Shown: one piece after another, positions 3,001 to 6,000 of the stretch
Numbering within the stretch: position 1 is the first letter of the stretch
Layout: every line of letters starts with the position of its first letter
Origin: a virus
Taxonomy: Duplodnaviria > Heunggongvirae > Uroviricota > Caudoviricetes
Virus record (IMG/VR): IMGVR_UViG_2711768048_000003
DNA length: 13,293 bases
Strand: one strand, 5' to 3'
Program-made: the position numbers

Positions 3001-6000
3001 GTTGTGTATTTTCAGCCTGCAAGAATACAAACACTGTCTTCATGGCATACAAAGGAATTCATAAGCGGTAAACCAAACAGACAGTTTATTGCCATAACTC
3101 AGGGACAAACCGGTGGTGATACATGTCCAAACGTTCAAATATGTATTGATGGTGCTCAGAAGCAATTAGGAAAAGCCGATGAAATCCTATCATATAAGAA
3201 CACAACATTCTTGGTGTACAACAAACCAATTGAAACAGATATAAAGTAATTTAATGCAAGAGAGGGATATTTCCCTCTCTTTTTTATTAATAATTCCCCT
3301 CAGAAAGGAAGCTGTAAACCCCGGGACCACCTGCAATATTACATGTCCACGCCTTTGGTTGTCCTGAAGCAGGTGCGCTATTGATAACGCGTTCGCCTAT
3401 ATCCCAGAAACCGGATGTAGGTACTGACGAAAGATAAAATGTTGTTTTTTCAACTTGTAACGCATTTGATGGCATTCCATATACACAAAGAGACGGTGAG
3501 TTTATGAGTACATTTCCTGAACCATAATTTCTTATGCCAACATTTATAGCTGTAGCCGTTGCGTCTATATACACACCACAACTAACATAGCGCCATTTCC
3601 CATTACCAGCTAAAGGTGCTGTAGAGTCTGTTTGTCCTGCACCATTAACTATAAACATAAGTTTTGACGCTGCTCCCTGGTCATTTACCCACGCACCAAA
3701 CCATACAAATTTCCCTTTTAGTTCTGGTGATTTGTTGAGGTCTATCGTTCGTCCCCAAACTCTATCTCCTGTCGTAACTAAGAATGAATAATTACCAGCA
3801 TAGATGTTTTGAGTTTTTATCAATGTTCCTGTGGTTCCAGATGTCGCGGTCCAGAGCAACATATTTCGATCAAGATAGTTAGCAGTTAACTCTCTGTTCG
3901 CAATATCTATTAAATGCGCAGTGTCAGGGTTTTGTGTCGCCGGGTCATAACTACCAACGTATCCTATGGAGTTCACTGTGTTGTTGGCAAGATATAGCCT
4001 GTCAGTAACTTTGGACGAAAGATTATTGTGGTACATTGCTAATAAATTATTCACTTTCGATACGTCTAATAACTGATTATTTTCAATCGTCAGGTTTTTC
4101 GCATAGTTCGTGAAAATAAATCCGTCTTGGTTAGGTAGCGCGCTGGCGTAGCCAATCGCGGTCTGCTGATTCCCGCGAATAGATACGGTATCATTAATTT
4201 TTGAAAGGTCAGGAATTAATGTAAAATTGTTCGCGATAAGGTGGATATCCGCACGTACTGTAATAGACTCAGGTACACTATACGGGTAACCAATCTCACC
4301 GTTGCGTTCCCAATAGTTATCATCAAGGTTAAGGCCTTTAACCCCGTAAGCCAAAAGTCCGTAGAACTTATTTTGCTCTATATTGTTGCCATTAACTCTG
4401 ACGCTCATACCGCCCTCAGCGTAAGCTGGCGTAAGTAAAACTCCACCGGCTCCGTTACCATAGATACGGCTGTTGATTATATTAATATTATTGCAGAAAC
4501 CACCAACATTAATACCGTTACCGGCGTTTTGAAACAACCGGCACCCAATGATGTCAATGGAGTAACCGTTAACTAATATTGCGTTGTTATTAGTATTAAC
4601 CACGTCAATATTTTCTATTTTAATGTGGTTGGCTTCAGTAAGACTGATGCCGTTAGCTGCGTAGCCATTTCCGTCAAGACCAAAGTCCCTGAACTCGCAG
4701 AACGCAATTACCCCATCTTGTTGCGTGATTATCGGTGCCGCTGTACCCGTAGAGAAAATTCTGGACTGATATGCGCCAGCACCTCGTATCATGGTGACAG
4801 TATTCTTAATCGTAATACCAGGGTCAACAATGAACGCCCCCTCTGGTATAACAATCTCAGTTGGCAACGTAGCATCATCAATAGCCTTCTGAAATGCAGC
4901 TTTGTTCTGAGCACCGGTGTTTCCCTCAGCAAACCCGTAGTCTGTAAGCGTCCTCAGGTCGATAGTTAGCTTTTTTGAGAGAATGGTCGATGTGCTATCG
5001 ACAAACTGTGGGTTATGCATGACTAGAGAGTCGCCAAGTGAGTGATCTTCGCTCAGGAGATTGCCCTTAAACTGATCTGGATCATACTTTAGCACATTCG
5101 GAAAATAGAACTGCTGCGCACCGTATGCATCATAAACAGCCATAGAATGGCCTTGCACAGTTACGAACTTGGCAATCTGTCCGTTATATACAGGGTAACC
5201 AGCAGCGTTAATGATGATTGGTTGCGAAACAGGAACGTGAGAGCCGTCTTCGTTTTCCACATAAACCTGAATCTGGTTTTCAGGATTTACCGGGTCCGTG
5301 TCAATTTTACCGATATAAATTTTGCCATTAGTTACGGCTTTAAAAGAACGCGCCATAGTGAAGAGTTGCGAAGGCATGCTTACCACAACATTTGCGGTGA
5401 TATCTGACATTTCATTGCTCCAGACGAATGATATGATGCAACCATGATGTGATTGCATACCGAAATGGTACTATTGAGTATTTATCCAGTAGGTTACGAT
5501 GCCATTCCACCCAACTGGTGAGGCATCAAGGATGTACAGCAAATACGACGAGGCGCAGTTTCACTTGAGACTTCCGCATGAACTCCACGCGAAAATTAAG
5601 CAGCGTGCGAAGATGAATAACAGGTCGCTGAACTCAGAGATAATTGCAGCGATTGAGGAATCATTGGATAAACAAAGCTCTGCATCAGTTTACATTGACG
5701 ATGCAGAGCGTATGGCAGAACAACAATCTGATATGGTTAAGAAAATTGTCTTTGATACGCTCAAGAAGCTATATAAAAAAGACAGCAGATAACCATCCGT
5801 TACGGAGGATTTATGCACAGAGATATGCTGAATATTGCGTTCTACATATTTGGTTTTTGCACGTTCCTGGTGTTTGCAAAGCTATTCTGACAACGCATCA
5901 GACTTAGCCCCCTGCGTCAGGGCGTTAATGGCCTTTTGCGCCTGCTGCATGGCTTTCTCAAACGCTGTTGATCCGCGTGGGGTGTTTGCCATTCGGAGCA

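What the first reader, a model, noticed from the sequence alone, without database searches (positions are those of the whole stretch)
5532..5792. Orphan Mnt-like repressor without arc/ant, with altered DNA-recognition strand
The protein aligns along its length with P22 Mnt, but the window has no arc and no antirepressor gene; mnt instead sits alone, convergent with the ejection genes and divergent from the tailspike. The N-terminal beta-strand that reads the operator differs (FHLRLP here versus FNFRMP in P22), which suggests a different operator. What it represses is open: the tailspike promoter, its own promoter, or the downstream mini-ORF.
Basis: partly seen in the sequence, partly recalled or inferred. 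Interest (0 to 1): 0.5.

Follow-up and report, generated by a model that had tools for sequence, protein, structure and literature searches.

The report
Tailspike-linked orphan Mnt repressor module
This is an intact, selectively maintained relative of the phage P22 Mnt repressor that has lost its usual antirepressor target, sits next to the tailspike gene, and has its own predicted DNA site; the arrangement is common and already described, but its job has never been tested.

Summary
Window 5532-5792 (+) encodes an 86-aa Mnt homologue: 49% identical to P22 Mnt, with both the Arc-like ribbon-helix-helix and Mnt tetramerisation domains. It lies convergent with gene 16 and divergent from the tailspike gene. 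The window has no arc, ant, Omnt or Oarc.

It is not a remnant. The ORF is intact in 137 of 138 related loci, and dN/dS is 0.06-0.2.

A candidate operator, CATACCGAAATGGTACT (5456-5472), sits in the same register as P22 Omnt relative to the mnt -35 element. It occurs once in the window and once in each of two complete phage genomes.

Across about 100 distinct loci the recognition strand co-varies with the operator:
- H-N-R (P22): GGTCCAC, always beside arc or ant.
- Q-N-R (phage L, Gally): AGACCAC, beside the tailspike.
- Q-H-R (this window): ATACC-N5-GGTAC, always beside the tailspike.

The P22 Pant equivalent has decayed, so the target is unproven. My best reading is an autoregulated repressor-operator module that also gates transcription into the tailspike gene.

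Orphan mnt was already reported for ST64T, ST104, L and the B7A prophage. About 3% of complete E. coli genomes carry this locus. This is a new specificity class of a known kind, of moderate interest.

The parts
5532..5792 (+). mnt-like gene: 86-aa ribbon-helix-helix repressor with an Mnt-type C-terminal tetramerisation helix. Predicted DNA-contact residues are Gln9, His11 and Arg13.
   Evidence: Intact in 137 of 138 related loci, with dN/dS 0.06-0.2.
5456..5472 (.). Candidate Mnt operator CATACCGAAATGGTACT. The core TACC-N5-GGTA is 5458-5470 and the dyad centre is A5464.
   Evidence: Same register relative to the mnt -35 element as the annotated P22 Omnt. The core is nearly invariant in 60 distinct upstream sequences. 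It occurs once in the window and once in each of the whole Sf101 and JEP4 genomes. It co-varies with the recognition strand. No binding data exist.
5474..5500 (+). Pmnt-like promoter: -35 TTGAGT (5474-5479), 15-nt spacer, -10 TACGAT (5495-5500). The inferred transcript start is about 5507.
   Evidence: Positional homologue of the annotated P22 Pmnt. ATTG and TACGATGCC are conserved across the class. The score alone (6.8) is not above chance. Relatives of the JEP4/VSe13 type have a 17-nt spacer.
5517..5523 (+). Shine-Dalgarno-like GGTGAGG for the 5532 start codon.
   Evidence: Read directly from the sequence. Conserved in the class.
5477..5505 (-). Weak leftward candidate at the place of P22 Pant: ATGGCA-17-AATACT. 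It would start inside the operator and read into the tailspike gene.
   Evidence: PWM score 7.0, against 17.2 for P22 Pant. That is at chance level, and the candidate is not position-conserved in JEP4-type relatives. It is listed as a possibility only.
3287..5410 (-). Tailspike gene, divergent neighbour of mnt. The operator's left edge lies 46 bp upstream of its ATG.
   Evidence: Head_binding PF09008 at 4.2e-67 plus a beta-helix. The tailspike N-terminus lies across from this mnt class in 58 of 60 distinct loci.
5436..5458 (.). Tailspike-leader dyad ATGCAACCA-N5-TGATTGCAT, abutting the operator.
   Evidence: The arms are a perfect 9 bp in IME10. A G-C to T-A double change in Escherichia sp. 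E1V33 (L094) keeps the pairing. It is absent from JEP4/VSe13-type leaders, which share the same DNA-binding domain, so it is unlikely to be the Mnt site.
5813..5890 (+). Mini-ORF of 25 aa, MHRDMLNIAFYIFGFCTFLVFAKLF, preceded by the Shine-Dalgarno sequence GGAGG (5804-5808). It is probably co-transcribed with mnt, and it overlaps the gene 16 stop by 9 nt.
   Evidence: The frame and Shine-Dalgarno sequence are kept in about 100 of 123 loci, including the divergent L094, and synonymous changes are present. No PHROG or NCBIfam family matches.
5882..8275 (-). Gene 16-type ejection protein, the last late gene before the mnt slot, convergent with mnt.

Best explanation
The region is a self-contained Mnt-family repressor-operator module: operator 5456-5472, Pmnt 5474-5500, mnt 5532-5792, and here a 25-aa membrane-peptide ORF downstream.

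The protein most likely folds as a ribbon-helix-helix dimer, tetramerises through its P22-like C-terminal helix, and binds the single dyad CATACCGAAATGGTACT using Gln9, His11 and Arg13.

That site lies directly against the -35 element of the mnt promoter, centred at about -43, and 46 bp upstream of the tailspike start codon. Bound there in the lysogen, the protein would do two things. It would set its own expression and that of the mini-ORF (autoregulation, sign unknown). It would also occupy the only entry to the tailspike gene, so that leftward transcription from or through this region is kept down.

What is shown: homology, an intact domain architecture, purifying selection, a unique conserved dyad in the Omnt register, and operator/recognition-strand co-variation.

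What is inferred: DNA binding, tetramer formation, promoter use, and any effect on the tailspike gene.

Sub-confidences:
- Functional DNA-binding protein: about 0.9.
- Operator identity: about 0.8.
- Autoregulation: about 0.6.
- Tailspike gating: about 0.35.
For: Family membership: both Pfam domains and the PDB matches 1mnt and 1qey.

Selection: the ORF is intact in 137 of 138 loci. dN/dS is 0.06-0.2, even at dS above 1.6 for the DNA-binding domain.

Register: the operator keeps the same register as the annotated P22 Omnt/Pmnt. P22 reads AGGTCCACCGTGGACCT-A-TTGAGA; the window reads CATACCGAAATGGTACT-A-TTGAGT.

Conservation: across 60 distinct upstream sequences, positions 3-6 and 12-15 are nearly invariant while the flanks vary.

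Uniqueness: one copy in the window, one in each of the Sf101 and JEP4 genomes, and no recurrent second site in 1.06 Mb of related loci (9 found, 16 expected by chance).

Co-variation across classes: H-N-R goes with GGTCCAC, Q-N-R with AGACCAC, and Q-H-R with ATACC-N-A. The CC/GG core stays invariant in all three.

Co-decay: the one pseudogenised copy (L098) also carries a GG-to-AG change in the operator core.

Module boundary: homology of the mnt module starts at about 5453, so the operator is its outer edge, facing the tailspike gene.

Linkage: both orphan classes lie next to the tailspike (58/60 and 39/40 distinct loci). The exceptions are one IS2 insertion, one unresolved locus with nothing found across, and L100, a Q-N-R variant with a different operator that faces arc. 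The orphan classes face ant in no locus, while the P22 class always faces arc or ant.

Independence from immI: L143 carries a complete immI of its own plus this module.

Published RNA-seq of the Gally prophage, an orphan Q-N-R mnt: mnt rises by log2FC 5.3, the tailspike gene by 4.4 and the gene after it by 4.9, while the ejection genes stay at background. So transcription does enter the tailspike gene independently of the late operon in an orphan-mnt lysogen (PMC9928086).
Against: There are no binding or expression data for this class.

Neither promoter candidate in the window scores above chance. Pmnt-like scores 6.8 with an unusual 15-nt spacer, and the leftward candidate scores 7.0; the median best score in shuffles is 7.3. 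The simple consensus scan found no more sites than expected.

The Pant equivalent is degraded in both orphan classes, so there may be nothing leftward to repress.

In Gally, mnt and tailspike RNA rise together rather than in opposition. Deleting mnt there had no effect on bacterial survival in macrophages.

The operator-to-tailspike distance is not fixed. JEP4 has a 190-bp insertion and L011 an IS2 between them.

Many P22-like phages, such as Sf6 and HK620, manage without mnt.
Confidence: 0.6

Rival explanations
1. Insulator or roadblock as the main function. Mnt bound just upstream of the tailspike gene blocks RNA polymerase arriving from upstream, either the late operon or prophage-expressed moron genes. 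This would set tailspike dosage, or keep the gene silent in lysogens. Autoregulation would be secondary.
For: Most orphan-mnt morons have a late-direction gene ending convergent with mnt and pointing at the tailspike gene: L orf62, ST160 orf64, Gally GALLYPH_14, VSe13_015, and the JEP4 rha/kilA operon.

GALLYPH_14 is highly expressed in lysogens, and tailspike RNA is roughly 3-20-fold lower depending on condition, about 20-fold at 1 h in macrophages.

The window has no terminator-like site between gene 16 and the tailspike gene.

Villafane et al. speculated that Mnt and Arc modulate PLate read-through into gene 9.
Against: In this window there is no late-direction moron gene between gene 16 and mnt.

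A roadblock would also hit the prophage's own late transcription after induction.

There are no data on roadblocking by Mnt.

In Gally, tailspike RNA rises while mnt RNA is high.
Confidence: 0.2
2. Trans-acting immunity. The resident orphan Mnt exists to repress an antirepressor gene, or another gene, carried by superinfecting or co-resident phages that have the same operator.
For: This is what P22 Mnt does for superinfecting P22 (own knowledge, Susskind and Botstein).

Divergence into specificity classes resembles heteroimmunity.
Against: No arc- or ant-linked copy of the Q-H-R operator was found in any locus carrying this class; in the Q-N-R class, 39 of 40 distinct loci face the tailspike and the exception (L100) has a different operator.

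Matches to the operator pattern that lack mnt nearby sit at the number expected by chance, and their loci carry no arc, ant or tailspike homologue.

No second site exists in the Sf101 or JEP4 genomes.

Confidence: 0.08
3. Regulator of a cargo slot. Mnt and Pmnt mainly serve to express lysogenic-conversion cargo placed downstream. Here that cargo is the 25-aa hydrophobic peptide, possibly an exclusion factor or toxin-like peptide.
For: The mini-ORF has a strong Shine-Dalgarno sequence and is conserved.

An alternative cargo occupies the same slot: a 162-aa protein in the B7A type.

P22 likewise has orf59a after mnt.
Against: Many members have no same-strand cargo: Sf101, JEP4, VSe13, L, ST160 and Gally. 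Yet they keep mnt and its operator under selection.
Confidence: 0.1
4. Decaying, non-functional remnant of an immI region after deletion of arc-ant.
For: The leader left of the operator in L/JEP4-type loci is homologous to the last ~60 bp before P22 gene 9. That is consistent with an ancestral deletion of arc-sar-ant.

The Pant equivalent is degraded.

The phage L authors raised this possibility.
Against: dN/dS is 0.06-0.2, and the ORF is intact in 137 of 138 loci.

The operator core is conserved and co-evolves with the protein.

The module co-exists with a full immI in L143.

The locus is present in 158 complete E. coli genomes.
Confidence: 0.02

Closest known systems
P22 Mnt repressor (immI region; PDB 1mnt and 1qey)
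   Same: 49% identity over the full length. Both have the ribbon-helix-helix plus tetramerisation-helix architecture. Both genes sit in the slot between gene 16 and gene 9. In both, a 17-bp dyad operator lies one base from the -35 element of the gene's own promoter, with an invariant CC/GG core.
   Different: There is no arc, sar or ant. The divergent neighbour is the tailspike gene. The contact residues are Q-H-R instead of H-N-R. The operator is ATACC-N5-GGTAC instead of GGTCCAC-N-GTGGACC. The strong Pant promoter is not retained.
Orphan mnt of phages L, ST64T, ST104, ST160 and Gally (mnt-only 'ant moron')
   Same: The architecture is the same: mnt alone, divergent from the tailspike gene. 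They also share the 5' UTR and promoter block GATGCC...GAGGCATC and the same kind of junction with the tailspike leader. Their function is also unknown in the literature.
   Different: Their recognition strand is PQFNLRLP (Q-N-R) and their operator is AGACCAC-N-GTGGTCT. Only 46-57% protein identity. They carry no mini-ORF; instead a convergent late-direction ORF follows mnt.
P22 Arc repressor
   Same: The ribbon-helix-helix domain aligns residue for residue over 8-49, and the strand numbering is identical: Q9, x11, R13.
   Different: Arc has no tetramerisation helix. It has Asn11 rather than His11, and its operator has TAGA half-sites, which are absent from the window.

Membership tests
Mnt repressor family (Pfam PF03869 Arc-like RHH + PF11423 Repressor_Mnt) | N-terminal ribbon-helix-helix DNA-binding domain | tested here: met
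   PF03869 at 54.9 bits against a cut-off of 20.4. PDB 1mnt at E=7.6e-19, aligned over residues 6-78.
Mnt repressor family (Pfam PF03869 Arc-like RHH + PF11423 Repressor_Mnt) | C-terminal coiled-coil tetramerisation domain | tested here: met
   PF11423 at 54.5 bits against a cut-off of 20.9. PDB 1qey at E=4.4e-8. This is a sequence-level result only; the oligomeric state itself is not testable here.
Mnt repressor family (Pfam PF03869 Arc-like RHH + PF11423 Repressor_Mnt) | Cognate dyad operator next to the -35 element of the gene's own promoter | tested here: met
   The 5456-5472 dyad is in the Omnt register, is conserved, is unique, and co-varies with the recognition strand. This is comparative evidence only.
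Mnt repressor family (Pfam PF03869 Arc-like RHH + PF11423 Repressor_Mnt) | Sequence-specific DNA binding as a tetramer | not testable with these tools
   Needs EMSA or footprinting and sizing of purified protein.
P22-type immI immunity region (mnt-arc-sar-ant) | An arc gene and an antirepressor gene divergent from mnt, under Pant | tested here: not met
   tblastn finds no arc or ant in the window. The tailspike gene lies across instead. Pant is degraded.
P22-type immI immunity region (mnt-arc-sar-ant) | Omnt and Oarc operators; sar antisense RNA | tested here: not met
   No Omnt or Oarc within 3 mismatches. No Rfam match in 5000-6300 at E up to 1.
mnt-only 'ant moron' of P22-like phages (ST64T, L and B7A types) | mnt as the only immI gene between the gene 16 and gene 9 homologues | tested here: met
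   Window layout. The same layout is seen in IME10, Sf101 and B7A. Described in PMC2629481 and PMC8022706.
Type II toxin-antitoxin RHH antitoxin (HicB, FitA and RelB-like hits) | An adjacent cognate toxin gene of a known type II family | tested here: not met
   The HicB and FitA RHH hits are only weak (28-29 bits). The downstream ORF is a 25-aa hydrophobic peptide with no family match, and it is absent from many members.

The most novel reading that the evidence does not exclude
Orphan Mnt/operator pairs form a second, tailspike-directed immunity layer. The resident repressor gates transcription into the tailspike gene, the last and infectivity-determining late gene. It would act on its own prophage and, in trans, on any incoming P22-like phage with the same operator. 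Incoming phages would then yield tail-less, non-infectious heads. Arms-race pressure would explain why two orphan specificity classes (Q-N-R and Q-H-R) have co-evolved with their operators while staying welded to the tailspike gene.
Probability: 0.1. Interest if true: 0.65.

Novelty: new member of a known kind. Interest (0 to 1): 0.35.

Why it matters
Mnt and Arc are textbook models of DNA recognition by beta-strands. Yet the mnt-only version found in many P22-like prophages has been left as 'another function or a remnant'.

This analysis shows the orphan form is under selection. It names a precise operator to test. It also gives a natural three-class co-variation table: residue 6/9 (H or Q) tracks operator position 4/14, and residue 8/11 (N or H) tracks positions 3 and 7-8. 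Mutant swaps can test this table directly.

If the module gates tailspike transcription, it would be a new control point for virion completion in a widespread prophage group, present in about 3% of complete E. coli genomes. If it only autoregulates, it is an ordinary leftover regulator.

Tried and rejected
- The 5436-5458 dyad as the Mnt site. Rejected: it is missing from JEP4/VSe13-type loci that carry the identical DNA-binding domain.
- The longer ORF from ATG 5499. Rejected: it is closed by stop codons in L094 and L096, and it overlaps the -10 element.
- P22 Omnt or Oarc in the window. None within 3 mismatches.
- A second operator copy elsewhere. None in the window, in Sf101 or in JEP4, and only chance-level hits across 1.06 Mb of related loci.
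- Trans targets in viral contigs using CATACCNAAAYGGTAC. Hits lacking mnt were at the number expected by chance. One unrelated phage family carries the 16-mer twice, 515 bp apart, but encodes no Mnt-like strand.
- A conserved sigma-70 promoter toward the tailspike gene. My PWM recovers P22 Pant (17.2) and Pmnt (13.7), but gives only chance-level scores in the window.
- A known RNA family in 5000-6300. None.
- An RNA fold of the tailspike leader. Not significantly more stable than shuffles, z = -0.9.
- Classic Mnt papers (Knight and Sauer; Berggrun and Sauer; Man and Stormo; Adams, Brown and Casjens). Not held in the library. Statements about P22 contact residues and about Mnt repressing Pant while stimulating Pmnt therefore rest on my own knowledge.
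Full report
WHAT IS THERE

The window is the late-operon end of a P22-like (Lederbergvirus) prophage, read on its minus strand.
- The needle gene (10770-11618), genes 14, 7 and 20, and gene 16 (5882-8275) run leftward.
- Next comes a small rightward ORF at 5532-5792.
- Then the tailspike gene runs leftward (3287-5410; true start MSDITANVV; Head_binding domain).
- A gtrA/gtrB/gtrC-like cluster follows (450-3249).

The small ORF encodes 86 aa. It is 49% identical to P22 Mnt over residues 6-85. It passes both Pfam models that define Mnt: Arc-like RHH at 54.9 bits and Repressor_Mnt at 54.5 bits. 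It matches the solved N-terminal domain (1mnt, E=7.6e-19) and tetramerisation domain (1qey, E=4.4e-8).

tblastn finds no arc or ant in the window. P22 Omnt and Oarc are absent even allowing 3 mismatches. No Rfam family, sar included, matches 5000-6300.

The alternative start at 5499 is unlikely. Its frame is closed by a stop just before the homologous ATG in two relatives, and it lies inside the predicted -10 element.

HOW COMMON, AND IS IT KNOWN?

The 521 bp around the gene are 98% identical to phage IME10, where the gene is not annotated, and to Shigella phage Sf101, where it is mislabelled 'partition protein ATPase'. At least 80% of 5300-5900 is present in 158 of 5426 complete E. coli genomes. 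IMG/VR holds 478 contigs encoding a relative of the Mnt family alignment.

The mnt-only arrangement is already in the literature. Villafane et al. 2008 named the slot between genes 16 and 9 the 'ant moron'. They noted that ST64T, ST104 and Para1 carry only mnt, and they drew the E. coli B7A prophage, which carries this very Mnt class. Zaworski et al. [quoted passage not shown] I found no functional study.

NOT A REMNANT

The reading frame is intact in 137 of 138 related loci. Pairwise dN/dS against the window is 0.08-0.22 within the close group. It is 0.06-0.08 for the DNA-binding domain against VSe13, JEP4 and Serratia relatives, where dS exceeds 1.6.

THE OPERATOR

In P22 the annotated Omnt (AGGTCCACCGTGGACCT) ends one base before the -35 element of Pmnt (TTGAGA). 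At exactly the same register the window has CATACCGAAATGGTACT (5456-5472), followed by A-TTGAGT.
- The core TACC-N5-GGTA occurs once in the 13.3-kb window (0.1 expected).
- It occurs once in the whole Sf101 genome and once in the whole JEP4 genome.
- There is no recurrent second site in 1.06 Mb of related loci (9 found, 16 expected).
- Among 60 distinct upstream sequences of this protein class, positions 3-6 and 12-15 and the central AAA are almost invariant, while positions 7, 11 and 17 and the left flank vary.
- blastn shows that in loci with a different tailspike leader, homology begins at about 5453. The operator is thus the outer edge of the mnt module.
- The one pseudogenised copy (Citrobacter, L098) also carries a GG-to-AG change in the core.

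CO-VARIATION

Sorting about 100 distinct loci by the three strand residues that face DNA gives three classes. These residues are P22 positions 6, 8 and 10, which are positions 9, 11 and 13 here and in Arc.

| Strand residues | Members | Operator |
|---|---|---|
| H-N-R | P22, epsilon34, Pluralibacter, Pectobacterium | (A/G)GGTCCAC-C/G-GTGGACCT |
| Q-N-R | L, ST160, Gally | (A/G)(A/C)GACCAC-N-GTGGTCTT |
| Q-H-R | this window | CATACC-N-AAA-Y-GGTAC |

- The CC/GG core is constant in all three classes.
- The H-to-Q change tracks T4-to-A4.
- The N-to-H change tracks G3-to-T3 and AC-to-(G/A/T)A at positions 7-8.
- From my own knowledge, residue 6 of Mnt is an established specificity determinant (Youderian 1983; Knight and Sauer; the Man and Stormo work on operator positions 16/17). 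I could not read those papers here.

This pattern is what a working repressor-operator pair produces. It is the main support for DNA binding at 5456-5472.

CONTEXT RULE

- The P22-type class always faces arc, or ant in the CUS-3 type.
- The Q-H-R class faces the tailspike N-terminus in 58 of 60 distinct loci. In the other two nothing was found across: one has an IS2 inserted between mnt and the tailspike gene (L011), and I did not resolve the other.
- The Q-N-R class faces the tailspike in 39 of 40 distinct loci. The exception is L100 (Candidatus Phlomobacter), which faces arc and has a different strand (PQFNFRMP) and operator (TATCAC-C-GTGATA).
- In L143, a CUS-3-like phage, a complete immI of its own (two mnt-like genes, an arc-like gene, and an ant 85% identical to P22 Ant) co-exists with the Q-H-R module beside the tailspike gene.
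- The two orphan classes share the GATGCC...GAGGCATC promoter/UTR block and the same kind of junction to the gene 9 leader, and differ from P22 there.

The tailspike-linked module is therefore an old, stable lineage, not a recurrent accident.

WHAT DOES IT CONTROL?

Here the evidence thins. My sigma-70 PWM recovers P22 Pant (17.2) and Pmnt (13.7).

| Sequence | Rightward (Pmnt homologue) | Leftward |
|---|---|---|
| Window | 6.8 (15-nt spacer) | 7.0, best candidate ATGGCA-17-AATACT |
| JEP4/VSe13 type | 8.5 | not position-conserved |
| Phage L | 9.5 | not assessed at this position |
| Gally | 10.9 | not assessed at this position |

The median best score in shuffles is 7.3. The Pmnt homologue is therefore supported by position and conservation, not by score. 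The strong Pant of P22 has decayed.

The operator is centred at about -43 of Pmnt and abuts its -35 element, as in P22. From my own knowledge (Vershon et al. 1987), P22 Mnt represses Pant and stimulates Pmnt. Autoregulation is therefore the safest inference, with its sign unknown.

The operator also lies 46 bp upstream of the tailspike ATG, and no terminator-like site lies between gene 16 and the tailspike gene.

Published RNA-seq of the Gally prophage of E. coli LF82, which has an orphan Q-N-R mnt, bears on this (PMC9928086):
- In macrophages versus overnight LB culture, mnt rises by log2FC 5.3, the tailspike gene by 4.4, and the gene after it by 4.9.
- The ejection genes stay at background. 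Transcription therefore enters the tailspike gene independently of the late operon in such lysogens.
- Against simple repression, mnt and tailspike RNA rise together.
- Deleting mnt did not change bacterial survival in macrophages.
- A highly expressed late-direction moron gene, GALLYPH_14, lies just upstream and could be the source of read-through. That suggests an insulator role.

VERDICT

This is a functional member of the Mnt family with a new specificity class and a well-defined predicted operator. It sits in an arrangement that is already known and common.

I rate the functional-repressor claim at about 0.9, the operator at about 0.8, autoregulation at about 0.6, and gating of tailspike transcription at about 0.35.

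It fails the membership test for an immI immunity region, because it has no arc, ant or Pant. It passes every testable feature of the Mnt protein family and of the mnt-only 'ant moron' type.

Interest is moderate. Nothing here would startle a P22 specialist. But the operator prediction and the natural recognition-code table make the open question 'what do orphan Mnt repressors do?' directly testable.

Noticed in passing
window 5813-5890 (+), Shine-Dalgarno GGAGG 5804-5808: A 25-aa hydrophobic mini-ORF (MHRDMLNIAFYIFGFCTFLVFAKLF) lies directly after mnt and overlaps the gene 16 stop by 9 nt. Its frame and Shine-Dalgarno sequence are kept in about 100 of 123 loci, including a divergent Escherichia species, with synonymous changes. 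It matches no PHROG or NCBIfam family. Other members carry a 162-aa protein, or nothing, in the same slot.
   Followed up: partly
window 5436-5458: The tailspike-leader dyad ATGCAACCA-N5-TGATTGCAT abuts the operator. Its arms are perfect in IME10. A G-C to T-A double change in L094 keeps the pairing. The other leader type (L, JEP4, P22) has a different hairpin, GCCGTAGCC..GCTGCGGC, at the equivalent place. The RNA fold is not significantly stable.
   Followed up: partly
window 5498-5503 and 5522-5527: The inverted repeat GATGCC...GGCATC brackets the mnt 5' UTR and Shine-Dalgarno sequence. It is conserved in both orphan classes, Q-H-R and Q-N-R. The inner pairing is CACC/GGTG here but CACTT/AAGTG in phage L, a possible compensatory change. 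The left arm lies upstream of the inferred Pmnt start, so a role in the antisense late transcript, or as a protein site, is possible.
   Followed up: no
window 11842-13293: Collinearity with P22-like late operons stops at about 11842, just past the needle gene. What follows is a NinE-domain fusion ORF (11856-12236, -), a 3'-5' exoribonuclease-like fragment (12122-12529) and Abc2 anti-RecBCD (12546-12839). The head genes are missing here, so the element looks rearranged or defective.
   Followed up: partly
RefSeq phage records (Sf101, P22, ST160, epsilon34 and others) and PHROG 795/2685: Mnt homologues are widely labelled 'partition protein ATPase'. That is an annotation error being propagated through PHROGs and RefSeq.
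   Followed up: no
L098 (Citrobacter sp.) 2921-3136: This is the only member with an in-frame stop in mnt (MYSK*). It also has the operator core changed from GGTAC to AGTAC, so the gene and its site appear to be decaying together.
   Followed up: no
L143 7300-10700 (IMG/VR 2648501336_000006): A CUS-3-like phage carries two tandem mnt-like genes, an arc-like gene, an ant 85% identical to P22 Ant, and a KilA/Rha-like gene. It carries the Q-H-R mnt module beside the tailspike gene as well.
   Followed up: partly
L109, L114, L140, L151, L175, L191: An unrelated phage family (about 53% GC) repeats TATATACATACCGAAACGGTACACAAC about 20 nt upstream of two successive genes, 515 bp apart. The repeat contains the JEP4-type operator 16-mer exactly. 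No Mnt-like strand is encoded nearby. This is probably coincidence.
   Followed up: partly
alignment A1; window 5682-5789: The protein is a domain mosaic. The window protein joins the Q-H-R DNA-binding domain to a P22-like tetramerisation helix (DAERMAEQQSDMVKKIVFDTLKKLYKK). JEP4 and VSe13 members join the same DNA-binding domain to a different C-terminus (EEERLASLISERVKEVAADILRKEKTR).
   Followed up: no
window 5480-5494 versus L003/L006: The Pmnt spacer is 15 nt in the window, IME10 and Sf101 type but 17 nt in the VSe13/JEP4 type, a 2-bp TT indel. This should change promoter strength between subtypes.
   Followed up: no
L011 (E. coli FACU 2024) 1687-2915: An IS2 element is inserted between the mnt operator region and the tailspike gene in one prophage, separating the two.
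   Followed up: no
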